Shown one piece after another: positions 1 to 41,709 of a stretch of DNA of 41,709 nt. The DNA lies in the IMG/VR virus record IMGVR_UViG_3300037851_000280, positions 1 through 41,709 of that record, one strand, 5' to 3'. Every line of letters begins with the position of its first letter. The first letter of the stretch is position 1. The notes beneath the pieces were generated by a model, which searched no databases, was not told the origin of the DNA, and saw only the letters and a program-made list of their open reading frames with translations. This stretch comes from a virus. Taxonomy: Duplodnaviria > Caudoviricetes. The translations under genes and the position numbers were made by a program.

Positions 1-222
1 GCCGCGCCGGTTGCGTTCGATGTGGCCGCCGATGTACCGCTCAGGGCGTAAGCCACCGCCAGCGCGCCGGTCGCGTTTGATGCGGCGGCCGATGTGCCGC
101 TTAACCCCACCGCCAGTACCGCCGCGCCGGTTGCGTTCGATGTGGCCGCCGATGTACCGCTCAGGGCGTAAGCCACCGCCAGCGCGCCGGTCGCGTTTGA
201 TGCGGCGGCCGATGTGCCGGAT
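1..222. repeat. 120-bp tandem repeat (two 60-bp subunits) within the fibre gene; also the terminal overlap
   Basis: 1-99 is identical to 121-219, and the same unit recurs at 41583-41709. Confidence 0.9.
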
Positions 223-2519: not shown

Positions 2520-3053
2520 TTAGTCCGTGATCACCAGCTTGCGCGGGATGATGATGACCCGGCTCGCGTTATCCGTCGCCGTCGTTTCGTCGCGAATGGC
2601 TTGACCTAGCTTGTTGTTAACCACCGGCACGACATACCGCCCACTCGGTCGCCAGATGATCGGCGCTTGCACCTGCACGGTGTTGCCGTCAGCCGTCGCA
2701 ATCAGCGACACGGCGGGCGCTCCGAGTTGCAGCGCCCACTCATCTTCGTTGCTATCGGTGGGCCATGTACCGTCGCTGCCCGTGACGCCGCCTGGATAGT
2801 AGGACGTGCTATGTGTGCAGGGCAGATACAGGTCAACCCGTGTCCCGGCCGTCGGCGCTGTGCCTGTCTCGACGACAAGCATCACGCTGTATTCTTCGTC
2901 CCATGACGTGCCCAGGTCGGCAACCGCGCCCATTCGCGCCGTGCCGTCTGCGAGTGCGTCAAGTGACAACGTGTGGGTGACGCCGGACGCACCGGCCTCG
3001 CCCCAAATGATCGCCGTCCCCGGCTGTATAACTACGTAATCTGGCAGCGCCAT
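2520..3053 (-). CDS. Putative virion structural protein
   Basis: 177-aa beta-rich ORF with AGGAG RBS, located in the tail accessory region. Confidence 0.6.
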   Translation of the reverse strand: MALPDYVVIQPGTAIIWGEAGASGVTHTLSLDALADGTARMGAVADLGTSWDEEYSVMLVVETGTAPTAGTRVDLYLPCTHSTSYYPGGVTGSDGTWPTDSNEDEWALQLGAPAVSLIATADGNTVQVQAPIIWRPSGRYVVPVVNNKLGQAIRDETTATDNASRVIIIPRKLVITD

Positions 3054-3063
3054 GATTTACTCC

Positions 3064-3534
3064 TTAAGCGTTCTTTGCGGCTTCAACGTCCTGATAGGTT
3101 AGCCGCCCCTCAAACGTCATCGTCGCGGGCGAAGCCGTGCTGCCCGTGCCGGTTGAAAACAGCTTTTCGGCGCGGGTCGCCGTGCGCTTTTGTGCCGTGG
3201 CAATTGCCGCTTTGAGCGTATTCTGAGTGCCACACCAATCTTCCAGCGTAGTCCTCGTTGCCGGTATCGACGGGTTGATGTTTCGCTCGAAAGCCCAAGT
3301 CAACCAAAGGATTTTGGTTTGCGCCAATCCGTCCGCTTGAAGGCCCGCGCCCGCCGTTTCCAGAATCGCCTTTGTCCATTCGTCGGGCGTGACCGATGTT
3401 TTCCACACCGTCCACGTCGGTGACGCGGGCAGGTTGTAAGCCGCCGCGATCTCCGCGTCAAACATATTGGCGAATGCCGGGTCGGCCGCGATGTCGGCTT
3501 TCAGCGTCAATAGTTGTTCGTTCGTAAGTGCCAT
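3064..3534 (-). CDS. Phage hypothetical protein
   Basis: 156-aa ORF with GGGAG RBS, collinear in the late operon. Confidence 0.65.
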   Translation of the reverse strand: MALTNEQLLTLKADIAADPAFANMFDAEIAAAYNLPASPTWTVWKTSVTPDEWTKAILETAGAGLQADGLAQTKILWLTWAFERNINPSIPATRTTLEDWCGTQNTLKAAIATAQKRTATRAEKLFSTGTGSTASPATMTFEGRLTYQDVEAAKNA

Positions 3535-3569
3535 CTTGATTTCTCCCTATATCTATTTTACTACCGAGG

Positions 3570-4160
3570 TCAATCCCACTTGGCTTTAGGCCGGGCCGCC
3601 TTTGCCGCCGCGACCAACTCCGCTAACACGCCTTGGCGCTCGGCAAGCTCTGCCAGCCCGCGGGCGTGCGCCCGTTTGGTATCGCCCGGCACGTTTGCCA
3701 GGTCGAGGCCGATGTCCATCGCAAGGCTCGCCAGCTCGTCATCGCTAAAGTGCCGTTCGAGCAGCCCGACGGTCACGGCCAGCGGCCGCAACGTCGCCGC
3801 CTGAGTAGGCAATACCGGGTCGGGCCGTGGCTCCCATTCTTCGCCCGCCTTCAGTTTGCGAACGCCGTTTTTCCAGTAGTCCACCTCCTGACGAAGATAG
3901 GCGACTTCGTTACGCAGCCGGGGTATTTCCGCCACCTCATTTCGTAGCCGGGTTATTTCGACATGGTCAATAATGTGCTGCTCCGAAAGCGCCCGTACTT
4001 CCCGCGACAATTCGGTAACGTTTGTGCGCATCGATGTGTAGCCCTCATCGTCACTACCGCTCCGGCGAAATACGACTAACAGTGACGCCACGCCGGGGAC
4101 GGCAAGCAGAATGGCGGCAATGAGTAAGACGATCCCGGCGTAAGCGGCTTCAGTGTTCAT
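3570..4160 (-). CDS. Membrane-anchored coiled-coil protein with C-terminal EAD7-like effector-associated domain
   Basis: N-terminal hydrophobic helix and heptad region (RLRNEVA x2). C-terminal LLERHFSDDELASLAMDIGLDLANVPGDTKRAHARGLAELAERQGVLAELVAAAKAARPKAKW fits the EAD7 pattern. ATGA overlap at 4157-4160. Confidence 0.7.
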   Translation of the reverse strand: MNTEAAYAGIVLLIAAILLAVPGVASLLVVFRRSGSDDEGYTSMRTNVTELSREVRALSEQHIIDHVEITRLRNEVAEIPRLRNEVAYLRQEVDYWKNGVRKLKAGEEWEPRPDPVLPTQAATLRPLAVTVGLLERHFSDDELASLAMDIGLDLANVPGDTKRAHARGLAELAERQGVLAELVAAAKAARPKAKWD

Positions 4161-4444
4161 CGTTTCGGCCATGCCCTCATAATGATGATGGCACTAAGTA
4201 GCGCCAGGATGAGTGACAATTCGCGCAGAATGGCGCTCCATAACATGCGACCTTCTCCGGATGTGTACTCGCGGAAGAAGATAACCGTCACGTAATAGGC
4301 AAACGTTACAAGCAGATAGCTGATAACCGGCGCGTGATAGAGCCGGTTTGCGGGCCGCGTCCGGTCCCACGCGACGGCCATAAAGCCAAGCGCAAGGCAG
4401 GTGGTTATCAGGACAATAGCCTGAGTAGTATCTGTCGCATTCAT
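4157..4444 (-). CDS. Small 3-TM membrane protein, holin-like
   Basis: 95 aa, three hydrophobic segments and a basic C-terminus; follows the tail genes. Confidence 0.55.
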   Translation of the reverse strand: MNATDTTQAIVLITTCLALGFMAVAWDRTRPANRLYHAPVISYLLVTFAYYVTVIFFREYTSGEGRMLWSAILRELSLILALLSAIIIMRAWPKR

Positions 4445-4462
4445 GTCGTTGTCCCTATGGCC

Positions 4463-7400
4463 CTATGGCGTAGTTGACGGGGCAAAATAAAGCAGAGTCC
4501 CGTTTGGCGTCACGCCGACAAGCTTTCCGTTCGTCCCCAATGAACTATCCCAATAAAAGGCCACTCGCCCCGACCGGGCCGCCTTTGCCGCCGCGACCGG
4601 GTCATAGTGAATGACAAGCGCCGCCATGTCTAGCGCGTGCGAGTGGGTTAGGAACGTCTCGCTAGTCGGGTCGGCGTCCATCGAGCTAGGCGAATCGATG
4701 GTGGTATCCAGCGGCTCATACGGGCCGGGTATCAGCACGTCCGGCGCGATGACATCAATGTACCCCGTCTTGGTCAGGCTTTCCGTCCCGTTGCCGTTCG
4801 TCGCCGTCAGAGTGACGCTATATGATCCGCCCTCAGTGTAAGCGTGTTCGGCCGTGACGCCCGTCCCGGCCGTGCCGTCGCCAAAGTCCCATTCGTAGGT
4901 GTCCACCGCATCGCCGTTGGGGTTGGTGGTGCTACCGTCAAAGGTGATTGTCTGGCCCGTGCGGGCAATCAACGGGTCGGCGGTGAAGGCCACAATCGGC
5001 CCGGTGATTGTTGGCGTCGTTGCCCCGCCCTCAAAGGCGATGACCATGCCGTAACGCGCCGTGGCACTAACGGTTGACCAGTTGATTGTAATCTTTGCCG
5101 TGCCCAGCGTGACTGTACCGGCAAGTAGGTTGGTATCGTCGCTCTTCTTTAGCTTAACGCTTGTCTCGCTGTAGCTTCCTGTATCGGACGTACCCGCGTT
5201 ATCCTTGCTGTACACCCCGGCGGCATACGTCCCGCCCGAATCGACCAGCGCGTAGGTCATGCCGGATGTTGTGTCATCGCTTGTCTGATAGGTCACGTCA
5301 TCGGTGTTAGACGATAGTAGGATAATCACAAATGCCGGATCGAAGTCTAGGGCAATATCCTGATTGCCCGTGCTGGTCGCCGTGGTGAATGACTTAACCT
5401 GCGTCCCGACGTTTGCCCCAAAATACATGAAAGCGCCGGTGTCGTTGATAGCCGCGTTCGCCACTTTCATTTGGTCGATGGTGCTATTGCGGATAACCTG
5501 CGCCGTGGTGGAACCGCCGCGATAGTCGCGTAGCAGCCGGTCGCCGTCTGCCGATATCCACGAGCGCCGGACGGTGGTCCCCACGCCGTCATCTTCCTGA
5601 AAGACAAACGCGCCGTATCCGGCCGTATCATTTTTGTCACCCGCGCCGAACGCATGAGCGTAGCCGGTGGCCGCGCTGCCCAGTGACCCGGTGAATTCGC
5701 TAAAGGCGATCATAGCCCCGGTCGTGAACGGGTTGCTAGGCGTCACGGCCGAATTGAGGCCGCCTAATGTCAGGTTGCTTACGTTGACCTCGGCGTCCGG
5801 CCCATACACCGCGACGGCCGTTATCAGGTAAGCCGATGGAAATGCGTCAAGGCAGTTGAGCGTCAAGGTATCGGCGCTGAATGATACGAACTCCGCCGCG
5901 CCGTCGCGTGTACCATCTTTGGTACACGAGAGCAGCGCCCGGTTGCTTGCTTGATGGCTGCCAACGTCGCTATCGCCGCTGTTATCGGCCGCCGCGAATG
6001 CGCCCGATGCCTGATTGCCGGACGCGTCTACCATGCCCCAGCCAAGCAACGCCCCGGCCGCCGTCGTGCCGGCCGTGGTCGCGCCGCTGATGAACATGAG
6101 CACGCCGACCGGCGTCGCCCCGCCGCATGAGAACGTTAGGTTAAAGTTGCCCGTTGATGTCGGCGCAGCCGTCTGGATAACGTCATAACCGACCGCCGCG
6201 TCGCCGCCTGTATCCTGCGCGATGATGGTGATCGTCTCGGTTGCCTCAGCCGACAGGCCGTTATCGTCCTCGACCGTCATGCGTATTTGATATTGACCCG
6301 CCGCTGAGAAAAGCCGGGTGGTATCTTCCGTCGCGGCGAACACGGTATAGCTGCCGCTTGGCAACGTCCGCACCGCCCACTCGTAAGCCGTGATTGTCCC
6401 GGTTGACGTGCTGGTATTGGTCAGCGTCGCCGTGCAGGGCGCAATGGCCGAAGTCGGGTCAAGGGTGTAGGTAAACCCGGCCGTGATTGTGTCAGTGTCT
6501 ACCCCGTCGTACTCATGACAACCGATGTCGTATTTGCCGCCGCTGGCGTCCGTCCGGGTGCTACCGCCGAACCATAGGCTTTCCCTTGTCACGGTTGGCG
6601 TGTAGCCATTTAGCGCCGTATGAGGCGCGCCCATGCCGATGGCGATGCTGTTACTCTTCAGCTTGTAGTTATTGACATCAAACGTCGTATCGGTCGGGTC
6701 GGGGATATCAGTAGTGTAGAAGACGCTGGCCGCGCCGCCGTCCTTAACGTTCGGTGTCCCCGTGCCCGTATTGATACGGGCAAACGGGTTGACCAAAATC
6801 GGGCTGCTTGGCGTGCCGTATACGTTATTGGCCCCCTCCGGGCGCATGGCCGCCGGTGTCACCGCCGCCGACTGGCTGAACAGGTTATTGCGCGGTGTGA
6901 TCCCGCTCAGGCCCACGCCGCTAACCTTGACGCAACCGCCCGGCGTGCTACTCGTGTTGAACACGGTAGCCGAGGCCAGAAAGATATTATTTTCGCAAAG
7001 GCTCCGCAAATGGGAATACCCCGACTTGGTTGACAACTCGGCCAGGAAGTAAGTCCCCCGCCAGCCATTATCTACAAATGTATTATAGCCGATATAACTA
7101 TCTACAATCTGCGATAGATAGGCCGTGCCGTTGCGCATGTCGAGTGTCTGGTTCGGCCCGATAATCAGGTTATTCGTCCAACTGCTATTGCGGATGGTGT
7201 CAATCCCGGCCGTGCTTTCCTCGTTAATCGGCATACCGGACGGGCCGTGATGCTGCTCCTGTTCGACCCGGCCCAGCGGCGTTAGCAGATTCTCGCAGAA
7301 GTAGCTGATGTTGCTATCCCACTCGCTTTTAATCGCGCCCGTCGTCGCCAGTTGGCTATGGTGGCAGGTGTGGACAATGTTCTGAGTGAATTCCAGGTCG

Positions 7401-8236
7401 GTCGAGTAAGACGCGCCGATGATGCCCTCGCCGCCGCAATAGGCGACGATGTTCCCTCTGCATACCGCGCCGGTGATTTTTCTGAAGCGCAACGACCCGC
7501 AAACGCTTTCCGGCCCGCCGTCCAGGTAGTCCGGGTTATCCCGCGAGAAATCACAATAGCGCATAGAGCCGCGGGTGATGATGTTATCGGTGATCGTCGC
7601 GTTGTAAATCCGATCGGCCGCATTGTCACCGACCATCAGCGGCTCATTAAATGTAAAGTCTACCCGGCAGCCGTCAACCGTGGCGTCACTACCCAGTACC
7701 AAGATGCCACGGCCTGCGCTGTTGCGAACGCATATCCCACGCAACGTTACGCCGCTGCCGGTGATGCGAATAATCGGCTGCGAGTAGTATTTATCCGCGC
7801 TTGAATTCTCTACTACCCACGCCTCCCCGCGTGCCACCGATATGGTGTAGTTTTTCGGTTGGCATGACGGTAGCGCATATCGTTCGGTTGCCGCGCCGTC
7901 GCTATCGCGTTGCTTGGTCGCGGGGAGGAACGCTCCGTAGCTGTCTTTGTAGTTCGTGTTGCCAAACAGGTGCGGCCCGTAGTTGGCGTCTATCTCCGGC
8001 TTGTGGCCGGTGTACGCCTCAAACGTGACGTTACTTTTTGTTATCTTAAGCGTTTCGCGATACTTTTCATTGGTCGGGGATTCGCCCCAGTCGCCGCCGT
8101 TATTGCCCATGACCTTGACGACATCGCCGCTGGTTATCTGGCTATGCGCGTAGGTCAGCGTCTTCCAAGCCGTGCCGGTTGATGTGCCCGCCGCCGCGTT
8201 GCTACCGTTCTTATAATCTACGTAGTACGTTGTCAT
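4463..8236 (-). CDS. Large receptor-binding/depolymerase-like protein: parallel beta-helix plus two PKD domains
   Basis: YYVDYKNGSNAAAGTSTGTAWKTL cap, beta-helix repeats and DIGCHEY end motif. PKD motifs YEWAV...GQYQIRMTVEDDNG and YEWDFGDG...HAYTEGGSYSVTLTATN. Confidence 0.8.
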   Translation of the reverse strand: MTTYYVDYKNGSNAAAGTSTGTAWKTLTYAHSQITSGDVVKVMGNNGGDWGESPTNEKYRETLKITKSNVTFEAYTGHKPEIDANYGPHLFGNTNYKDSYGAFLPATKQRDSDGAATERYALPSCQPKNYTISVARGEAWVVENSSADKYYSQPIIRITGSGVTLRGICVRNSAGRGILVLGSDATVDGCRVDFTFNEPLMVGDNAADRIYNATITDNIITRGSMRYCDFSRDNPDYLDGGPESVCGSLRFRKITGAVCRGNIVAYCGGEGIIGASYSTDLEFTQNIVHTCHHSQLATTGAIKSEWDSNISYFCENLLTPLGRVEQEQHHGPSGMPINEESTAGIDTIRNSSWTNNLIIGPNQTLDMRNGTAYLSQIVDSYIGYNTFVDNGWRGTYFLAELSTKSGYSHLRSLCENNIFLASATVFNTSSTPGGCVKVSGVGLSGITPRNNLFSQSAAVTPAAMRPEGANNVYGTPSSPILVNPFARINTGTGTPNVKDGGAASVFYTTDIPDPTDTTFDVNNYKLKSNSIAIGMGAPHTALNGYTPTVTRESLWFGGSTRTDASGGKYDIGCHEYDGVDTDTITAGFTYTLDPTSAIAPCTATLTNTSTSTGTITAYEWAVRTLPSGSYTVFAATEDTTRLFSAAGQYQIRMTVEDDNGLSAEATETITIIAQDTGGDAAVGYDVIQTAAPTSTGNFNLTFSCGGATPVGVLMFISGATTAGTTAAGALLGWGMVDASGNQASGAFAAADNSGDSDVGSHQASNRALLSCTKDGTRDGAAEFVSFSADTLTLNCLDAFPSAYLITAVAVYGPDAEVNVSNLTLGGLNSAVTPSNPFTTGAMIAFSEFTGSLGSAATGYAHAFGAGDKNDTAGYGAFVFQEDDGVGTTVRRSWISADGDRLLRDYRGGSTTAQVIRNSTIDQMKVANAAINDTGAFMYFGANVGTQVKSFTTATSTGNQDIALDFDPAFVIILLSSNTDDVTYQTSDDTTSGMTYALVDSGGTYAAGVYSKDNAGTSDTGSYSETSVKLKKSDDTNLLAGTVTLGTAKITINWSTVSATARYGMVIAFEGGATTPTITGPIVAFTADPLIARTGQTITFDGSTTNPNGDAVDTYEWDFGDGTAGTGVTAEHAYTEGGSYSVTLTATNGNGTESLTKTGYIDVIAPDVLIPGPYEPLDTTIDSPSSMDADPTSETFLTHSHALDMAALVIHYDPVAAAKAARSGRVAFYWDSSLGTNGKLVGVTPNGTLLYFAPSTTP

Positions 8237-30813: not shown

Positions 30814-31052
30814 CAACCTTGATCCGAGTGGGAAACACAATCATCAACCTGGACAACGTGACACACGTCGCCGGTGACTCGGTGCTGGTCGTGTATTTCA
30901 ACGCCCAGAGCGACGTGTCCCCCGGATACGATGCACAGTCTTCGATAACATTTCGTGACGAAGAGGCCGCCATCCTGCGCGAGTACCTCATTGGGTGCGC
31001 CGTGGATGTTCGAACGTACATCGGCGCTAATTGCAGCAAGGGGGCATCATGA
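30810..31052 (+). CDS. Hypothetical protein
   Basis: AAGGAGG RBS; LIRVGNTIINLDNV motif. Confidence 0.65.
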   Translation: MTTLIRVGNTIINLDNVTHVAGDSVLVVYFNAQSDVSPGYDAQSSITFRDEEAAILREYLIGCAVDVRTYIGANCSKGAS

Positions 31053-31261
31053 CCCGGCGACGCTATCCGATTATTCCAGACCGCACGCCGCGGCCCATGT
31101 CGCCAACGGCTCGCCGCGTCCGGGCCGCGGCATTCGTCCCCGGCGCGCTGGCGTTCGGCATTGTAGCGATGACCTACGATGCGTTACCGATGGGCGTGAT
31201 AGTCCTGATTATCCTGCTTGCGGCGGTGTGCGCGGCGGCGGGGTGGATGGTAGGGAGGTAG
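31049..31261 (+). CDS. Small 2-TM membrane protein
   Basis: Two hydrophobic segments; ATGA overlap. Confidence 0.55.
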   Translation: MTRRRYPIIPDRTPRPMSPTARRVRAAAFVPGALAFGIVAMTYDALPMGVIVLIILLAAVCAAAGWMVGR

Positions 31262-31269
31262 ATGGGCCG

Positions 31270-31869
31270 ATGAGTGCAACCGTCAAGCAACCCCGCGCCG
31301 ATGCCCTGCGCGTTGCCCTGCGACTGGTCGAGGCTCTGCAACCGTACTGCCACCGCATCGAGCTGGCCGGCAGCCTGCGCCGCGAAACGCCACTGGTTGG
31401 CGACATCGAGGTCGTTGCCGTTCCATTGTCCCGGACCGACCTATTTGGCTATCCGGTCAAAGGCCCGACGCCATTGGAAGCGTTTCTGGTTGGGAAGGGA
31501 ATTGAATTCACCAAAAACGGCGACCGCTACAAGCAATTCAAATACGGCCGCCACACGGTTGACCTGTTCCTGCCCACGGCCGCCACGTGGGGCAGCATCT
31601 TCGCCATCCGCACCGGCTCGTGGGAATTCTCCCGCTGGCTGGTCACGTCGCGGGTTAGGGGCGGCGCAGCGCCTGAGGGCGTCACGTTTCACGACGGCCG
31701 GCTCTATGCCTTCAGCCGTCGCCTGACCACTCCGGAAGAGACCGACGTGTTCGCTGCCCTGGGCCTGGCCTTCATCGAGCCGCGACTGCGTTTCGGCCCG
31801 GCCGACGACCCGGTCTGCGTTGAACCTGTTTGGAATTACGACGTCAACGAGGAGGCCGTCACGCCATGA
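31270..31869 (+). CDS. Minimal family X DNA polymerase/nucleotidyltransferase (palm and thumb only)
   Basis: AGSLRRE...GDIEVV...VDLF...TGSWEF...EETDVFAALGLAFIEPRLR. Confidence 0.85.
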   Translation: MSATVKQPRADALRVALRLVEALQPYCHRIELAGSLRRETPLVGDIEVVAVPLSRTDLFGYPVKGPTPLEAFLVGKGIEFTKNGDRYKQFKYGRHTVDLFLPTAATWGSIFAIRTGSWEFSRWLVTSRVRGGAAPEGVTFHDGRLYAFSRRLTTPEETDVFAALGLAFIEPRLRFGPADDPVCVEPVWNYDVNEEAVTP

Positions 31870-31997
31870 CCACCATCCTAACCCTTTGCCTCTTTGCCCC
31901 CACCGTATTCCTGCTCGGCCTGGGCATTGTCGCCGTCGCCGTGTGGGCATGGGAGCAAGTGCCCAGCGATGTCGCGGTGAATGAGGATGCGTTGTGA
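31866..31997 (+). CDS. 43-aa single-TM protein (not in ORF track)
   Basis: MTTILTLCLFAPTVFLLGLGIVAVAVWAWEQVPSDVAVNEDAL; ATGA and GTGA overlaps with both neighbours; GGAGG RBS. Confidence 0.6.
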   Translation: MTTILTLCLFAPTVFLLGLGIVAVAVWAWEQVPSDVAVNEDAL

Positions 31998-32563
31998 AGT
32001 ACGGTGTCATTCTGGCCGATCCGCCGTGGAGCTACAATAACGCCGGAACGCGCGGCGCGGCTGCGCTTGTCTATCCCACCATGTCAGATGCCGATATTGC
32101 CGCGCTTCCCGTGGGCGACATGGCCGCGTCAGATTGCGTCCTCCTGCTCTGGGGTACGTGGCCCAAATTACTAGAGGGGTGTATGGCGGCCCTTGACGGT
32201 TGGGGCTTTGCTTACGTTACTGGATTTCCCTGGATAAAGGTCGAGGAGGTCAGCCGCGACCTATGGGGCGAATTGAAAATCAAAACACGCTACGGGTTGG
32301 GCTTTTGGGCACGCGGCACAAGCGAGCCGCTACTTATCGCCCGCCGTGGCGATCCCAAGCCGCCGCCGGATGGCTTTATCGGGCTGCTATCGCCCAACCT
32401 TGCCCACAGTCGTAAGCCGGAGAGCATTTATCACTATGCCGAGGCCATGCCGGGACCGTATCTAGAATTGTTTGCACGTCGCCCGCGTGCGGGCTGGGAT
32501 TCGTGGGGCAACGAAATAACAAGCACGATTGTAATGCCTGACGGTGCGGAGGCCGCGCCATGA
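31994..32563 (+). CDS. MT-A70 family N6-adenine methyltransferase
   Basis: ILADPPW, YPTM, LLLWGTWP, WGF.Y, HSRKPE, YLELFARR..GW..WGNE. Confidence 0.92.
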   Translation: MKYGVILADPPWSYNNAGTRGAAALVYPTMSDADIAALPVGDMAASDCVLLLWGTWPKLLEGCMAALDGWGFAYVTGFPWIKVEEVSRDLWGELKIKTRYGLGFWARGTSEPLLIARRGDPKPPPDGFIGLLSPNLAHSRKPESIYHYAEAMPGPYLELFARRPRAGWDSWGNEITSTIVMPDGAEAAP

Positions 32564-33171
32564 TCACTCGCCGCGCCGTCACCACCGACACGGGCGCAAT
32601 TCGTAACAGCGTCTTCGCCGGCGTCGTGGCAAGCGGCACGACTTACGGCACGCTGGCCGCGCCTGGCCCAGTAGCCGTCTGTATCGCCGTCGGTGGCAGC
32701 GCGGCCCTTGCCATGCTCTGCTGGCGCATCTGGGAGGGCGACCGCCGTGCTTACGAGACCCGCGAAAGAGCGGAGGAAGCGCCGCCCGTATCCGAGACCC
32801 GACCGGTGCGGCCGTTTGTGCCAACGACCAACGGCAACACAACGCGGATCGCCAATATCCGATTGCCGCTGCACGATTGGCAAGCGCTAATAGATGACGC
32901 GGCGGCCAATAACTGGACAATTAGCCGCGACCGAGGGCGGCGCTTTATGCCGCGTGAATACTACGCCGATTGGAGCAAAACCGTTTCCACGTTAGAGCGG
33001 GCGGGAATGGTCCAGCGACAGGGCAACCAGACGCGGCTAACCGAACACGGACTGGCGGCCATTGTTGCTATGGGCGTCTCCCTGCCCCAAACGCGCCTGG
33101 AGCATCGCCCGCTTCATAGAGCGGACGGGCGGCGAGCGGACGGGCGGGCGAGTAGGGGGGGGGAGCGATGA
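32560..33171 (+). CDS. Membrane-anchored protein with possible C-terminal winged HTH
   Basis: N-terminal hydrophobic segments; LERAGMVQRQGNQTRLTEHG wing-like motif. Confidence 0.55.
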   Translation: MITRRAVTTDTGAIRNSVFAGVVASGTTYGTLAAPGPVAVCIAVGGSAALAMLCWRIWEGDRRAYETRERAEEAPPVSETRPVRPFVPTTNGNTTRIANIRLPLHDWQALIDDAAANNWTISRDRGRRFMPREYYADWSKTVSTLERAGMVQRQGNQTRLTEHGLAAIVAMGVSLPQTRLEHRPLHRADGRRADGRASRGGER

Positions 33172-33380
33172 CCTGGGACGATGTGCGCGCCTTCATAGCC
33201 GCCGACTTGACCCGGCAGACAGGCCGCGAAGTCAAGGCTGGTAGCATCTACATAGCGTCCGACTTCGTAGGCATCCGGCTGGCCTACCCTGTTATCATCG
33301 AGGGAGAGGTAGTGCCGGACGCCGACGATTGGCATTGGGACTGGTATGACTTTGAGAATGACATGAGGATGACCCCATGA
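33168..33380 (+). CDS. Hypothetical protein
   Basis: ATGA overlaps on both sides. Confidence 0.55.
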   Translation: MTWDDVRAFIAADLTRQTGREVKAGSIYIASDFVGIRLAYPVIIEGEVVPDADDWHWDWYDFENDMRMTP

Positions 33381-33793
33381 CACTAGACGATCTCTCCGAC
33401 GGCAACGCCGCCGCCGACATGCTCGGTGTGTCAAGCGGCTCTAACGCCTGGCGCATTCTGCGCGACCGGTTGGACGAATACCGCCGCTCCACCGGCCGCG
33501 ACGTGCAGATGGTCAAGGTCGGCGCAAAGATGGCCGCCGTGACTACCGACCTGACCGCCTTTGTCCAGTGGTATGACCAATGGCGCAAGGACGCCGCCGC
33601 CGACATGCAACGGCGTGCAACTGAAGGCAACCGCCGACGCGCCGCTGAACGCAAGGCGCACGCGCCGTACACCGTTCACCCGTATCACAGTAGCGACCGG
33701 CGCAAGCGTGACACGCCTGAGCAGATCGCACTTGCCAAGCGCAAGGCCAATCTACGAGCCGCTATCATCTGGCTTAAGGAAGAAATGGAATGA
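33377..33793 (+). CDS. Hypothetical protein, possibly DNA-binding
   Basis: AAADMLGVS HTH-like start; ATGA overlaps. Confidence 0.55.
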   Translation: MTLDDLSDGNAAADMLGVSSGSNAWRILRDRLDEYRRSTGRDVQMVKVGAKMAAVTTDLTAFVQWYDQWRKDAAADMQRRATEGNRRRAAERKAHAPYTVHPYHSSDRRKRDTPEQIALAKRKANLRAAIIWLKEEME

Positions 33794-34353
33794 GGGGATT
33801 GCCAGATAGATTTGACAAAAAGTGGCGGGATATTTGCGAAGTCGCTCCGATTAGCGCCGCACACGCCCGCTACATGATCGGTTTACACTATCTTGGTAAA
33901 TGGCCCGCGATTGTACGCTGTTCACTTGGTCTATACGTAGGCCCATTTGTAAACGGGTTGTGTATGTTTAGCGATGCTCCACATCAAACAAGCGTTCGCT
34001 ATAACGGCGTGACGTGGGAACTGGCCCGGCTATGGGTCCACGATGATATACCGACCAATGCCGAATCATGGTTTATTGGCAAAGCGGTAAAATATGTGAA
34101 GATCCATTACCCTGAAGTTCGATATCTTGTTAGTTACGCCGATCCATCGGCCGGGCACATGGGGACGATTTACAAAGCGGCCAACTGGCAATCCGATGGC
34201 CGCACGGATGACGATAGAAAAACGCCTCGCTTTGATCTGGCCAGCGCAAACACGGGGAAGAAATACGGGCGGTCAATACACGTCCCCGCCGATGAGCCTA
34301 CCGTGCGCGTGCGGCGCGTTTCTAAGTATAGATTTGTTTATCCAATTCGTTAA
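33790..34353 (+). CDS. Mom-like (GNAT-fold) adenine modification protein
   Basis: HYLGKWP, WELARLWV, NAESWFIG, VSYADPSAGHMGTIYKAANW motifs. Confidence 0.8.
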   Translation: MRGLPDRFDKKWRDICEVAPISAAHARYMIGLHYLGKWPAIVRCSLGLYVGPFVNGLCMFSDAPHQTSVRYNGVTWELARLWVHDDIPTNAESWFIGKAVKYVKIHYPEVRYLVSYADPSAGHMGTIYKAANWQSDGRTDDDRKTPRFDLASANTGKKYGRSIHVPADEPTVRVRRVSKYRFVYPIR

Positions 34354-35316: not shown

Positions 35317-35633
35317 TGACCACCACCCCACGCAAGACCACAGGCGAGCGCCAACGGGCACGGCGTACCCGCCTTAACGAACTGGCCCGATCGCTCGGCT
35401 ATGATAGCTGGAGCAAGCTGGAGACGGCGGCCCTGCAAGGAGATGTGTTTATGAACCACTACCGATTCGATTTCGTTGTGACCGACATGGGGCAAGAAAT
35501 CCCCCTCAGTTTTGTGGTCCAGGCCGCGTCAACCGACGAAGCGGCTGCCCTGTGGGACGCCCTGCTGAGCGTGTTGCCGGCCGGCCGGGTCGGCGGCGGC
35601 TGGTACGAGGTGCAAGATGAGCCGCAAGAATAG
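35316..35633 (+). CDS. Hypothetical protein, candidate antitoxin/regulator
   Basis: Basic N-terminus RQRARRTRLNELARSLGYDSWSKLETA and acidic C-half; overlaps the HicA start; internal in-frame RBS+ATG at 35451. Confidence 0.5.
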   Translation: MTTTPRKTTGERQRARRTRLNELARSLGYDSWSKLETAALQGDVFMNHYRFDFVVTDMGQEIPLSFVVQAASTDEAAALWDALLSVLPAGRVGGGWYEVQDEPQE

Positions 35634-35862
35634 TCTTCAGGAGTGCAAAACCAGCGGCGACTTCCTGCGCTATGCCGAGCGCCACGGCTGCGCTATCGAG
35701 CGGGGACGGCATACCTGCATTGTTCATAATGGTCACCGCGTGCCCGTCCCGACGCATGGCAACGGCGAACTGTGCAAAGGCACGCGGGCGGCCATTATCC
35801 GGGCGCTGTCGGCTATCGGGCTGGCCGTGGCGGTCATTGCCATGATTGCGGCGATGGGGTAG
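35617..35862 (+). CDS. hicA: HicA-family toxin-like protein with C-terminal hydrophobic tail
   Basis: FLRYAERHGC.IERGRH...RVPVPTHGNGELCKGT..AIIRAL is the HicA dsRBD-fold pattern. Confidence 0.72.
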   Translation: MSRKNSLQECKTSGDFLRYAERHGCAIERGRHTCIVHNGHRVPVPTHGNGELCKGTRAAIIRALSAIGLAVAVIAMIAAMG

Positions 35863-36479: not shown

Positions 36480-36791
36480 TCATACCAGCTCCAACGCTGA
36501 TAGCGAGTCGTAAACAGGTATGCCCCATGCGGCGGCTTGCGCCGTCTCTTTATCCGCCCCCGGTGAATAACCGGGCAGCCTCAGTATCGCGTCACATACA
36601 CGCAACCATTCCAGGTCAAGGGCCATCCAGAATTCATAATCATGCGGCTTCATCATATGCCAGAAGTGATACAGATGCGGCACAAATGGCACGTGGCCTA
36701 ATGCCGTTAAATGGTCGGCGGCGGCAATTGCGGAGGCGACGTTAACCGCCGGATCTCCTTGAGTGTACGGCCCGGATATGAACACGCGCAT
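36480..36791 (-). CDS. DUF4406/nucleoside 2-deoxyribosyltransferase-like protein
   Basis: RVFISGPYT...PFVPHL...DLEWL..CDAILRLPGYSPGADKE...A...GIPVY; TAATG coupling. Confidence 0.8.
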   Translation of the reverse strand: MRVFISGPYTQGDPAVNVASAIAAADHLTALGHVPFVPHLYHFWHMMKPHDYEFWMALDLEWLRVCDAILRLPGYSPGADKETAQAAAWGIPVYDSLSALELV

Positions 36792-37876
36792 TAGATTATC
36801 TCCCACGCCGGCAACGTTTCGCGCACATTGTCTGGCCTTGCCCCTGGCGCGTGCATCTCGGTAATCGCCGACTTCCCCCATTCGCTGCCCCATGCGATCA
36901 TACCGATGTCGCGGCCGAACCAGTAGCGTTCGCCGTTGGCGTGAACCTCTATCACGTCCGGTATCTGTATCCCGTTGAACACCGCTGAATCATATCGCTT
37001 GACGAACGTCGCCCGGTTGACCGCCGGGCCGCTGTTAGCCGCCGACGGCTGCCCCGTCCGCTTATCGTAAAATTGCACCCGATGACCTGGCCCGGTCCAC
37101 GTCTCGCCCGGTCGCATCCACCGGGGCAACCAACGGGCAAAGTAACTGTCCGGCTCATACTGCACGTAGAACCGGTCGCCGCCGGGCGACGTGTCCAGGC
37201 CGCGATAGATGTGGTCGTCGTCGTAGGCGAATTGCTCCCACTGGCTGTTTTTGGTCAGGTAGAACACCCGTTCCTCTCGTTCGTCTCGTTGCACCTGAAA
37301 GCGCTCGCCCGTGTTGATTTCATAAAGCGGTCCGCGCCGGGCATAACGCGCCGCGCCCATCAGGTAGGGGAGCAGGTCGAGTCGGTCGCCTTGCCCGACG
37401 ATGACCGGCCCGACAGGGACACCCGGCGAAAGCGGCTCAGCTGGGATAGGCGCGGGCGTGACCGGTTGCGCTTCTTCATCTGTGTTACCGAACGTCACCG
37501 ACCAGTACGATTTCCACGGCGTGCCGAGCGCGTAGTAGTAACCGACGCCGATATGCTCCCATACGCCTAGCACCTGCGCCCGGTGGGTCAGGCTGCCCAT
37601 CCACCAATTGAGCATCATAGCCGTGTCGCCATTCCAGCCCCAGCCGACGACTTCGCCCCATTGCGTCCAGATGTACCCGGCGTCCTTCGCTCGCTGGCCT
37701 CCGTCGCGGCCGTCGCTGCCGATGTGGACGAGACCCTCGTGCGCGGCCAGGTCGGCGGCGTGACCATCAGCCGCGCGTGTCAGGCGGCCGTCAACCGTCA
37801 GCGGTGGCAGCCCGTGCCCGCGCCGGGCCGCGTTAATCGCCGCCGTCATACCGGCTTTTTGTTGCCCTGTCGTCAT
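36791..37876 (-). CDS. CAP (SCP) domain protein with Pro-rich linker and uncharacterised aromatic-rich C-terminal domain
   Basis: INAARRGHGLPPL...L.RAA..HA.D....H.GSDG...R...AGY....GE...WWMGS..HRA.VL....IGVG....YW...FG. Confidence 0.85.
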   Translation of the reverse strand: MTTGQQKAGMTAAINAARRGHGLPPLTVDGRLTRAADGHAADLAAHEGLVHIGSDGRDGGQRAKDAGYIWTQWGEVVGWGWNGDTAMMLNWWMGSLTHRAQVLGVWEHIGVGYYYALGTPWKSYWSVTFGNTDEEAQPVTPAPIPAEPLSPGVPVGPVIVGQGDRLDLLPYLMGAARYARRGPLYEINTGERFQVQRDEREERVFYLTKNSQWEQFAYDDDHIYRGLDTSPGGDRFYVQYEPDSYFARWLPRWMRPGETWTGPGHRVQFYDKRTGQPSAANSGPAVNRATFVKRYDSAVFNGIQIPDVIEVHANGERYWFGRDIGMIAWGSEWGKSAITEMHAPGARPDNVRETLPAWEII

Positions 37877-37891
37877 GGTCAATCCCCTTGA

Positions 37892-37921
37892 TTGTACGCG
37901 CATAGCGGCGCATGCTATAAT
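37892..37921 (+). promoter_or_regulatory. Promoter for the antisense HNH gene
   Basis: TTGTAC-18-TATAAT with extended -10 (TGCTATAAT). Confidence 0.6.
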
Positions 37922-38657: not shown

Positions 38658-38897
38658 CTAGGCGCTGTTGTCAATTGGCGCGTAGCCGCTGATTCGCTTG
38701 GTGACGCCGTTCATCTGCGTTCGGATGACCGTCACATGGCGCATTCGCCCGGCAGCCAGAAGCGACCGGATACGCGCCCGCGCGACCTGGTCGCACACGC
38801 CCCAGACCGCCGCGATCTCGACGGCCGTGTTACCTTCCTCCGCTTCACTGGTACGCGCTTCGTCAAGCAGCGCGAGTAGTTCGTCTTCCGTCCACAT
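38658..38897 (-). CDS. Winged-HTH DNA-binding protein
   Basis: TAVEIAAVWGVCDQVARARIRSLLAAGRM. Confidence 0.65.
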   Translation of the reverse strand: MWTEDELLALLDEARTSEAEEGNTAVEIAAVWGVCDQVARARIRSLLAAGRMRHVTVIRTQMNGVTKRISGYAPIDNSA

Positions 38898-39756
38898 TGT
38901 TAGGCTCTCTCCAGTAACCTTCGATGGGCCAATCGTGATACCGTTTGACCACCTCATAGCGGCCGTTGTCACAGATAACGTAAGCCCCGCCGATGGGCAG
39001 AATGCCGCCGCCCAGCCGGTGGCCGTAGGCCGTGGTCAATTGCCAGGACGGGTTGATGATCACCCGCGTCCTGAATGCGTCGTATGAATCCCCCGGCGCG
39101 TGAACGTGCCCATATATACGCAGGTGTGGCGGGTGCTTGTCGTTGCGATTCTCCCAATCGGCCATCGCCGCCAGCGTCATGGGGAAGTTCGCCCTTGTCC
39201 ACGGCCGCCGACCGCCTCCGCCCGGCGGATGGTGTGACACGTCAAACCGGACGCCGCTAAACTCAGCGCGCAACCGCCACCACGAGTTAACCCGCACCTC
39301 GTTCGACTTGCCGGGATTCTTAAGCACCGACGGCACGGCGCCGAGGTCGTGGGCCGTCGCCTCATCGAGTGCAGAGCTTAGCCCGGTGTGGGCTTCCGTG
39401 CCCCGCGTGATGAAAAGCCTATCCCCCTCTCTCATCAAGCTTGTTGCCGGCTCCAGCGCCTGGGCGACCATGCGCTGAATATCGGCCGGGTTGCGCGTGA
39501 CAAGTTGCCCCGTCGGATGGTGGTTATTGTCGCCCGTCTCGCCGTTGATGATGATGACCAGCCGCGCCCCATGCGCGTCTCGCCGTTCCTTGACCTCAGT
39601 CCAGAAGTCTAACCAATGTCGCCATATCCATCGCTGTTGACTGCTTGCCCGGTACGTGCCGCCGTCGTCAAGGTTGACAACCGGCGGCGATAGCGCGACG
39701 GTCGAGTTGATGTGCAAGTCCCCGACCAGCGCTACGACCGCTGGTTGGGTGGTCAT
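38863..39756 (-). CDS. Calcineurin-like metallophosphoesterase
   Basis: GDLH, NGETGD, GTEAH, SHH and GHVH motifs. Confidence 0.82.
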   Translation of the reverse strand: MTTQPAVVALVGDLHINSTVALSPPVVNLDDGGTYRASSQQRWIWRHWLDFWTEVKERRDAHGARLVIIINGETGDNNHHPTGQLVTRNPADIQRMVAQALEPATSLMREGDRLFITRGTEAHTGLSSALDEATAHDLGAVPSVLKNPGKSNEVRVNSWWRLRAEFSGVRFDVSHHPPGGGGRRPWTRANFPMTLAAMADWENRNDKHPPHLRIYGHVHAPGDSYDAFRTRVIINPSWQLTTAYGHRLGGGILPIGGAYVICDNGRYEVVKRYHDWPIEGYWREPNNVDGRRTTRAA

Positions 39757-40043
39757 CCAGGCCCGCCTTCCGTATCCGGCGCTTCTGGCGCAAAGTACCG
39801 GATACCGGCAAGCCGCCCCATTTTGTAGGCCGCGACGAGGATCAGCAGGATGTCCTCTTGCAGCACCTTCATTGTCACGTTTGTTGCTTCCAGGCTACGC
39901 ACGGCCGCCAGCCATGACATATCAACTAGGCCCGGTATGTCTTCGGACTGAGGGCCAGGCGGTCGCGTGTAGAGTTCTACCAGTCGCCCGCCGCGCGCGA
40001 GCACAGACCTGACCGACGGGTCGTTACCCCCGTTCTTTCCCAC
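39753..40043 (-). CDS. Hypothetical protein
   Basis: 96 aa, GGGGA RBS, ATGA overlap. Confidence 0.5.
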   Translation of the reverse strand: MGKNGGNDPSVRSVLARGGRLVELYTRPPGPQSEDIPGLVDMSWLAAVRSLEATNVTMKVLQEDILLILVAAYKMGRLAGIRYFAPEAPDTEGGPG

Positions 40044-40092: not shown

Positions 40093-40335
40093 CTACCGAT
40101 TTTCGCTGAGAAGCGTTGTCTCTTTCAGGCTCGTTCTACTCTGCGTATACGTCTTTGCCACTTGCCCGATGACAATGGGCACGACCACGGCCGCAACCGC
40201 CAGAATCAGCCCGGCCCACAGGTCGGCTTCTTCCTGGCTGAGCAGTTGGTACGCCACAAATAGCGGCATGGCTGCCGCGAGCACGGTTACGACCGCGCTA
40301 AGCCAAAATTCTGTCGTCTTATATCCCGGTTCCAT
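40093..40335 (-). CDS. Holin
   Basis: PGYKTTEFWL start, two TM helices, Y..SR..K tail; AAGGAG RBS. Confidence 0.75.
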   Translation of the reverse strand: MEPGYKTTEFWLSAVVTVLAAAMPLFVAYQLLSQEEADLWAGLILAVAAVVVPIVIGQVAKTYTQSRTSLKETTLLSENR

Positions 40336-41084: not shown

Positions 41085-41709
41085 CTAATCATTGAGGCGA
41101 CGCAGATCGTCGCCCGCGGTCGCCACTGTTCCTGTAGCGCCGTACTTGTAAACATAGCCCAGGCCGTTACCCGGACCGCCAACATCCCCGCCCGCGTCCG
41201 GGCTGGAAGCGTAGCCGTGATTGTCGGGACTGCCGACGCCGCCGCGTGCCGCGTAGCTGACGACGAATCCCCAGAAGACATCGGACGCCAGAACGTACAA
41301 CGCCGCCGTCGCGCCGGTCGTTGCCGTCGCCGTGCCGGATAGCCCTAACCCTAGCCCCAGCGCGCCGGATGCGCCGGTCGTTGCCGTCGCCGTGCCGGAT
41401 AGCTCGACGATGGTCAAGGACACGTCAAGCGCGCCGGTCGCGTTTGATGTGGCGCTACTGCTACCCGATAGCGGCAGGGCCAGCGCCATAGCGCCGGCCG
41501 CGCTCGATGTGGCGCTACTGCTACCCGATAGCGGCAGGGCCAGCGCCATAGCGCCGGCCGCGCTCGATGTGGCGGCCGATGCGCCGCTTAACCCCACCGC
41601 CAGTACCGCCGCGCCGGTTGCGTTCGATGTGGCCGCCGATGTACCGCTCAGGGCGTAAGCCACCGCCAGCGCGCCGGTCGCGTTTGATGCGGCGGCCGAT
41701 GTGCCGGAT
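41085..41709 (-). CDS. C-terminal part of the 20-aa-repeat virion protein (continues from 1-1436)
   Basis: Open to the window end in the same repeat register (SGTSAAASNATGALAVAYAL...). Confidence 0.85.
   Translation of the reverse strand, partial: SGTSAAASNATGALAVAYALSGTSAATSNATGAAVLAVGLSGASAATSSAAGAMALALPLSGSSSATSSAAGAMALALPLSGSSSATSNATGALDVSLTIVELSGTATATTGASGALGLGLGLSGTATATTGATAALYVLASDVFWGFVVSYAARGGVGSPDNHGYASSPDAGGDVGGPGNGLGYVYKYGATGTVATAGDDLRRLND
41311..41709. repeat. 60-bp coding tandem repeats
   Basis: For example 41446-41505 = 41506-41565 and 41311-41343 = 41371-41403. Confidence 0.85.

What the first reader, a model, noticed from the sequence alone, without database searches (positions are those of the whole stretch)
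3570..4160. Phage-encoded membrane-anchored EAD7-like (death-like adaptor) domain: candidate decoy of host defence
Seen: TM helix, coiled coil, Pro linker, then a ~65-aa helical domain F(S)DDEL..LA.DIGLD...VPGDTK...AR.L.....R.G.L..LV......RP...W. Established: this pattern matches effector-associated domains (EAD7 type), homotypic adaptors of bacterial conflict systems that are common in Chloroflexota. Phage death-fold-only proteins can inhibit such signalling. Inference: a lysis-cassette-type TM/coiled-coil gene captured a host EAD. It may sequester EAD-bearing effectors at the membrane or recruit them to assist lysis, as it is translationally coupled to a holin-like gene. This is the best candidate for an undescribed system here.
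Basis: partly seen in the sequence, partly recalled or inferred. Interest (0 to 1): 0.78.

Follow-up and report, generated by a model that had tools for sequence, protein, structure and literature searches.

The report
Phage lysis protein with CARD-like tip
This phage gene joins a widespread membrane-anchored helix protein of phage lysis gene clusters to an EAD7 domain, a module predicted to fold like the CARD domains of immune signalling, so it likely docks onto the host's EAD7-bearing immune proteins and likely ties the timing of cell bursting to them, which is untested.

Summary
Observation confirmed. ORF 3570-4160(-) (196 aa) has one TM helix, a 67-residue helix, a Pro linker and EAD7 (Pfam 56.6 bits, cut-off 32). 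The model's best structural matches are CARDs (Z 8.9 and 8.8). The architecture recurs in 62 of the top 150 clusters at 50% identity. New here: the TM-helix part is a phage family in its own right. 82 of 86 viral loci found by its motif lack EAD7; 34 of 49 follow a small multi-TM gene; 24 of 62 lie within two genes of a holin or endolysin. EAD7 is therefore a graft on a lysis-cassette protein and is under purifying selection. Each of 4 phage records has one copy, so its partner is itself or the host's (likely Anaerolineae). Best reading: a LysF1b-like lysis regulator with a host-immune docking tip (0.4); pure decoy 0.25. Binding is untested. The upstream 3-TM gene is present in only 10 of 15 groups and is not shown to be a holin. 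The scan noted this fusion before on other DNA (at least 16 genomes); my literature searches found no description.

The parts
3570..4160 (-). TM + long helix + EAD7 gene, 196 aa (an in-frame ATG at 4172 would add 4 aa)
4077..4133 (-). Hydrophobic core of the single TM helix (residues 10-28), followed by RR; predicted N-out/C-in
   Evidence: more K/R after than before the TM in 62 of 64 proteins
3849..4049 (-). Long amphipathic helix (residues 38-104), homologous to the EAD-less phage family; its end motif is about one heptad shorter here
3783..3848 (-). Pro-rich linker (residues 105-126)
3588..3764 (-). EAD7 domain (PF19960), predicted CARD-like fold
4157..4444 (-). 95-aa three-TM partner gene, ATGA overlap with the EAD7 gene; conserved Q, Y, R inside helices; no known family
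4463..8236 (-). 1257-aa beta-helix/PKD protein, homologous to beta-helix proteins that follow the EAD7 gene in relatives
   Evidence: E 4e-31 to the L067 protein
40093..40335 (-). 80-aa two-TM holin-like gene, downstream across the contig join; homologous to the two-TM genes after the EAD7 gene in L002, L087, L094
   Evidence: Phage_holin_9 only E 0.015, below cut-off
36791..37903 (-). 370-aa CAP-domain protein whose C-terminal part is shared with relatives' M23 and GH25 endolysins; likely this phage's endolysin (inference)
   Evidence: E 4e-7 and 7e-12

Best explanation
The protein is a one-helix membrane protein of a phage family tied to lysis genes, carrying an EAD7 domain at its predicted cytoplasmic tip, and it likely regulates lysis with that tip likely docking onto host EAD7-bearing immune complexes. 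Shown: the architecture, the EAD-less parent family, its gene neighbourhood, purifying selection on EAD7, and one EAD7 per phage record. Inferred: (1) the TM-helix part activates or times a multi-TM holin partner, as LysF1b and LysA2b do; (2) EAD7 binds the tandem EAD7 arrays of host STAND NTPases and their effectors; (3) when those host complexes assemble late in infection, they would cluster the regulator and shift lysis timing so that progeny escape before host suicide, with some sequestration of host EAD7 as a side effect. Confidence is about 0.85 for 'lysis-cassette membrane protein with a functional EAD7'; the figure below is for the full mechanism.
For: EAD7 above cut-off; CARD-like model; predicted N-out/C-in in 62 of 64. 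Parent family: 86 of 96 motif loci match an HMM built only from EAD7-bearing N-termini, and 82 of these stop 1-35 residues after the motif; profile-profile probability 98.8%; a profile of EAD-less members scores this protein 22 bits against at most 7.5 for reversed controls. A small multi-TM gene lies directly upstream in 34 of 49 EAD-less groups, against 5 of 43, 3 of 58 and 3 of 53 at other positions. A holin, endolysin, amidase or M23 hit lies within two ORFs in 24 of 62 groups. Phage Metamorphoo gp46, in a lysin A-membrane-membrane-holin row, scores 24 bits. EAD7-bearing relatives are followed by M23 (L002, L010) or, 3.5 kb on, GH25 endolysins (G005). LysF1b has the same topology, helix and ATGA overlap and is needed for efficient lysis (PMC13056207, abstract and section 14). 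EAD7 dN/dS <=0.32 in 10 of 12 computable pairs. One EAD7 in each of G000, G003, G004, G005. Host-type hits: 30 of 30 scanned have 2-6 EAD7 copies, 13 with a STAND/AAA-type NTPase, 3 with CHAT, 1 with TIR.
Against: No experiment on any member; homotypic binding of EADs is itself a prediction (PMC7159879, section 30). 55 of 63 phage-type EAD7s fall on one branch without multi-domain host proteins (SH-aLRT 80, weak) and differ from host-type domains at several positions, which fits self-association as well as host tracking. The 3-TM partner is missing in 5 of 15 groups. 14 of 62 EAD-less groups sit before terminase genes rather than a recognised lysin. No sequence link to LysF1b was tested directly. 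In this window the likely endolysin is far from the gene and the helix-end motif is shortened. The host assignment rests on 4 MAG labels.
Confidence: 0.4

Rival explanations
1. Pure decoy: the membrane-tethered EAD7 soaks up or caps host EAD7 complexes and blocks abortive infection; fusion to the lysis protein only supplies late expression and an anchor.
For: A phage CARD-only protein inhibits gasdermin defence (PMC10312443, passages of section 9). Host-type EAD7 proteins are largely STAND NTPases, CHAT and TIR proteins. Late timing would suit sensors of late phage proteins (recalled). 8 of 63 phage-type EAD7s fall among host-type domains, as if re-sampled (weak support).
Against: All 32 EAD7-positive rows are fused to the TM-helix part (the search patterns came from the fused family, so this is biased). 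The scaffold and, in 10 of 15 groups, its partner gene are kept. dN/dS shows conservation, not rapid chasing.
Confidence: 0.25
2. Self-assembly only: the captured EAD7 polymerises with itself and acts as a concentration switch that clusters the regulator and holin, with no host partner.
For: Phage-type domains mostly group apart from host-type ones and are more strictly conserved at E17, R50, R65 of the domain alignment. Animal death-fold adaptors are supersaturable switches (PMC13012725, section 10; no bacterial domain tested there).
Against: The parent family works without EAD7 in 82 of 86 loci; the fusion is linked to a lineage rich in EAD7 immune proteins.
Confidence: 0.2
3. Effector recruitment: EAD7 pulls host EAD7-linked proteases or NADases to the membrane to help break the cell or filament.
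For: EAD7 is predicted to recruit effectors (PMC7159879, section 30); CHAT and TIR fusions exist.
Against: These phages carry their own candidate endolysins and holin-like genes; firing suicide effectors would risk the burst (inference).
Confidence: 0.08
4. Non-immune tether: the domain acts like SAP/LEM helix-loop-helix domains and ties DNA or procapsids to the membrane.
For: SAP-type rows at Z 6.5 (PIAS1, FAN1) and weak SAP/LEM rows in Foldseek; 14 of 62 EAD-less groups precede terminase genes.
Against: CARD rows score more than 2 Z higher and cover the whole domain; the Pfam match is EAD7; mean net charge is about -1.3.
Confidence: 0.07

Closest known systems
EAD7 (Pfam PF19960; Kaur et al. 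2020 PMC7159879, 2021 PMC8195603)
   Same: Small all-helical non-enzymatic domain at a protein terminus; above Pfam cut-off.
   Different: Phage-borne, single copy, fused to a membrane anchor and helix instead of a core NTPase component or effector; no second copy in the record.
pCARD of Acinetobacter phage 133 (PMC10312443)
   Same: Phage-encoded death-fold domain with no enzyme attached; the model here resembles bacterial CARD 8SS1 from the same paper.
   Different: pCARD has no other domain and lies by its trigger rIIAB; this one is membrane-anchored, late and grafted on a lysis-cassette protein; no inhibition shown.
LysF1b (phages Girr, NormanBulbieJr; PMC13056207) and LysA2b (D29; 10.64898/2026.08.27.747656)
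   Same: One N-terminal TM, N-out/C-in, basic residues after it, long cytoplasmic helix, ATGA overlap behind a small multi-TM gene.
   Different: 88-124 aa with no folded tip; about 50% charged against 35% here; partner has 2 TM, here 3; homology not shown.
PHROG 1397 and PHROG 2658 ('hol-like chemotaxis'); Metamorphoo gp46
   Same: EAD-less relatives match PHROG 1397 (29 of 60) and 2658 (14 of 60); gp46 matches their profile.
   Different: The window's protein itself matches no PHROG; these families lack EAD7 and have no tested function that I found.

Membership tests
EAD7 domain (PF19960) | Score above Pfam gathering cut-off | tested here: met
   56.6 bits against 32
EAD7 domain (PF19960) | Small, all-alpha, terminal | tested here: met
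EAD-coupled conflict system | [quoted passage not shown] | tested here: not met
   One match in G000, G003, G004, G005; the host genome is not held
EAD-coupled conflict system | Homotypic EAD-EAD binding | not testable with these tools
   No host partner known; no EAD7-EAD7 job was run
Death-fold (CARD-like) superfamily | Structural match over the whole domain | tested here: met
   Z 8.9 and 8.8, rmsd 2.0-2.4, 70-73 aligned; predicted model, four long helices called, middling Z
Phage CARD-only inhibitor (pCARD type) | Death fold with no other domain | tested here: not met
   TM and long helix present
Phage CARD-only inhibitor (pCARD type) | Inhibits a CARD-dependent defence system | not testable with these tools
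   Needs experiment
LysF1b-type 1-TM lysis regulator | One TM, N-out/C-in, long cytoplasmic helix | tested here: met
   (predicted)
LysF1b-type 1-TM lysis regulator | Coupled behind a small multi-TM gene | tested here: met
   ATGA overlap; 10 of 15 groups; 34 of 49 EAD-less groups
LysF1b-type 1-TM lysis regulator | Sequence homology to LysF1b | tested here: inconclusive
   LysF1b was not fetched. DUF2746 (its family according to AI notes, unchecked) is not among the 25 of 58 Pfam families shown for 60 EAD-less members
LysF1b-type 1-TM lysis regulator | Deletion delays or impairs lysis | not testable with these tools
   Needs experiment
Holin (upstream 95-aa gene) | Match to a holin family | tested here: inconclusive
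   No PHROG or NCBIfam holin match for the window gene; no Pfam holin match in 10 members
Rz-like i-spanin | N-in/C-out topology with the helix outside | tested here: not met
   Charge bias predicts C-in in 62 of 64

The most novel reading that the evidence does not exclude
Phages of EAD7-rich Chloroflexota wire their lysis clock directly to the host's CARD-like immune polymer: assembly of host EAD7 complexes seeds clustering of the membrane regulator and triggers bursting before suicide completes. This would be counter-defence by sensing and escape rather than inhibition, and the first functional handle on any EAD7.
Probability: 0.25. Interest if true: 0.9.

Novelty: new variant of a known kind. 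Interest (0 to 1): 0.68.

Why it matters
EAD homotypic coupling is a prediction, and I found no experimental study of EAD7 in the searches made. A phage family that keeps EAD7 under purifying selection on a lysis-cassette protein gives an indirect sign that EAD7 systems act against phage, and a small testable probe for them. The natural with-and-without pair (EAD-less parent against the fusion) makes the question directly testable. If the tip tunes lysis, it links phage lysis timing to host death-fold signalling.

Tried and rejected
Complex prediction of the 3-TM protein with residues 1-104: no answer, score 0.00, not evidence either way. No EAD7-EAD7 job was run, since only a stand-in host was available. 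Foldseek against PDB and BFVD: nothing at E<=0.001. No solved sequence relative. No match in 50,697 annotated phage records, PHROGs, NCBIfam or PADLOC. Close-relative scan of viral contigs: 0 of 73 candidates. The 3-TM protein: only generic three-helix matches; an ESM Atlas structure row to the ETR1_N sensor domain (TM 0.74) was under the naming bar and was not followed. Frameshifted forms, as in earlier notes: none of 82 EAD-less loci had EAD7 in any frame, but 15 held under 300 nt downstream; this gene is one open frame with only an A5 run. Spanin rejected on topology. 'Always paired with a holin-like gene' rejected (10 of 15). The two genome hits labelled Bauldia and Thauera are phage-like contigs in MAGs; I judge them misbinned and did not use them for host assignment. 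A host-wide EAD7 census was not possible, as no Chloroflexota handle was obtained. No promoter-like site at 3000-5200. P0137 passed the TM filter but was dropped for lacking the helix module.

Full report
Observation. The ORF at 3570-4172(-) gives 200 aa; a second ATG at 4160 overlaps the upstream stop as ATGA and gives 196 aa. Residues 137-195 of the long form match Pfam EAD7 at 56.6 bits, E 2.2e-15, cut-off 32. AlphaFold2 on a 63-row alignment (pLDDT 90.9) shows a TM helix, a 67-residue helix, a loop and a helical domain. Against 48,161 PDB chains the top 13 rows are death-fold domains, led by NLRC4 CARD (Z 8.9) and the Azospirillum bacterial CARD 8SS1 (Z 8.8) (8SS1 identified from passages of PMC10312443). 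Z of this size is middling for helical domains and Foldseek found nothing at E<=0.001, so the fold call rests on the agreement of Pfam and the ranking.

Setting. The window is a whole IMG/VR record with terminase, portal, capsid and tail genes. Its first 99 bases equal a stretch at its far end, inside a 60-bp repeat array of one fibre-like gene, so it is likely a near-complete circular genome (inference; CheckV says 50%). No integrase hit appeared among 54 ORFs scanned. Late order: beta-helix protein, 3-TM gene, EAD7 gene, six structural-type ORFs, a 2-TM holin-like gene, and further on a CAP protein that shares its C-terminal part with relatives' M23 and GH25 endolysins.

Family. Of the best 150 clusters at 50% identity, 63 are 140-240 aa with an N-terminal TM; one lacks the helix module and was dropped, leaving 62. 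K/R follows the TM in 62 of 64 proteins counted, which predicts a cytoplasmic EAD7. Two EAD7 patterns gave 63 viral loci, of which 8 (7 contigs) hold EAD7, all fused. With metagenome and genome scans, all 32 EAD7-positive rows have the N-terminal module in frame; they form 15 groups, 10 with the 3-TM gene overlapping or abutting (that profile was built from these loci). Neighbours read as late phage genes; downstream lie M23 or GH25 endolysins or a beta-helix protein, then a 2-3-TM gene. One record is a provirus.

Parent family. A pattern for the helix-end motif returned 96 viral loci; 86 match an HMM built from EAD7-bearing N-termini, 4 carry EAD7 and 82 end within 35 residues. Homology is backed by hhalign (98.8%; partly circular, as the set was picked by the motif) and by the reverse profile test, in which 57 of 63 fused proteins beat the best reversed control. 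Among 62 EAD-less groups, 34 of 49 with an upstream ORF follow a small multi-TM gene; 7 of these match holin PHROG 1299, and 24 groups in all have a lysis hit within two ORFs; 14 precede terminase genes (93 of 107 first and 83 of 96 second neighbours were scanned, and many loci are short). Six EAD-less loci have an upstream gene matching the 3-TM profile. EAD7 is thus a C-terminal graft on an older two-gene membrane unit.

The EAD7 itself. dN/dS over the domain is at most 0.32 in 10 of 12 computable pairs of 15 tried; 0.51 and 1.05 come from near-identical pairs (pairs are not independent and the window's gene is not among them). In a tree of 279 domains, 55 of 63 phage-type rows share a branch free of multi-domain proteins (SH-aLRT 80) and 8 fall among host-type rows; 70 columns cannot settle one origin or several. 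Each of four phage records has one EAD7. The 30 long host-type hits scanned all have 2-6 copies, 13 with an NTPase (multi-copy proteins are favoured by the ranking).

Mechanism. The anatomy matches LysF1b and LysA2b, 1-TM proteins that activate a 2-TM partner (PMC13056207: abstract, section 14, passages; 10.64898/2026.08.27.747656: abstract, section 17). Homology to them is not shown, so this is 'works like'. EADs are predicted homotypic adaptors (PMC7159879: section 30, passages; PMC8195603: passages). With no second copy in the phage, the partner is the host's EAD7 or itself. A plain decoy needs no anchor (pCARD, PMC10312443: passages), while here the lysis scaffold is kept, so I rank an input to lysis timing first (0.4), decoy second (0.25), self-assembly third (0.2). 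Earlier AI notes of PAS domains on similar regulators (unchecked) moved me towards the input reading. None of these steps is tested.

Novelty. Searches for 'effector-associated domain' or 'EAD7' (listings), phage decoy or CARD-only terms, death-like with Chloroflexota and lysis, Anaerolineae with holin and holin with death domain showed no description of this fusion; only 20 rows were listed for the larger searches. The EAD7 passages in 10.1101/2024.11.07.622273 and PMC10910872 concern host systems. The two held supplements of PMC7159879 have no 'EAD7'; its source-data files and those of PMC8195603 were not seen and may list such proteins. PMC9671378 (passages) and PMC13012725 (passages, section 10) gave background. 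The scan had noted the fusion in at least 16 other genomes; the EAD-less parent family and its counts were worked out here.

Verdict. A real, conserved and apparently unpublished fusion of a lysis-cassette membrane protein with a CARD-like immune adaptor: new variant of a known kind, interest 0.68.

Noticed in passing
window 1-99 and 41608-41706: Contig ends are identical over 99 bases inside a 60-bp repeat array, splitting one Ala/Ser/Gly/Thr-rich gene; the record is likely circular although classed linear and 50% complete.
   Followed up: partly
window 36791-37903 (-): CAP/SCP domain joined to a C-terminal part shared with M23 and GH25 endolysins of related phages; a possible CAP-type endolysin.
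   Followed up: partly
window 35617-35862 (+): HicA-family gene (27.8 bits, cut-off 27); a partner was not looked for.
   Followed up: no
window 38863-39756 (-) and 39753-40043 (-): A 297-aa gene, 50% identical to the one behind the holin-like gene of L034, and a 96-aa gene; a similar pair follows the holin-like gene in several relatives.
   Followed up: no
window 4157-4444 (-): The 3-TM family keeps Q, Y, S and R within its helices and has a weak structural likeness to the ETR1_N sensor domain; it may be a sensor rather than a holin.
   Followed up: partly
L100, L101, L147, L150, L156, L161, L168 and others: The multi-TM plus 1-TM pair often stands just before the terminase genes (14 of 62 groups).
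   Followed up: no
G001 (L067, L094) and G002 (L068, L089): MAGs labelled Bauldia and Thauera each hold two phage-like contigs with the fusion; likely misbinned.
   Followed up: partly
window 30955-34353 (+): Plus-strand block with a DNA polymerase beta thumb hit, a DNA methyltransferase and a Mom-like gene.
   Followed up: no
window 4160-4172 (-): Two in-frame ATGs four codons apart, with a GAGGG stretch 1 and 13 bases before them; a dual start is possible.
   Followed up: no
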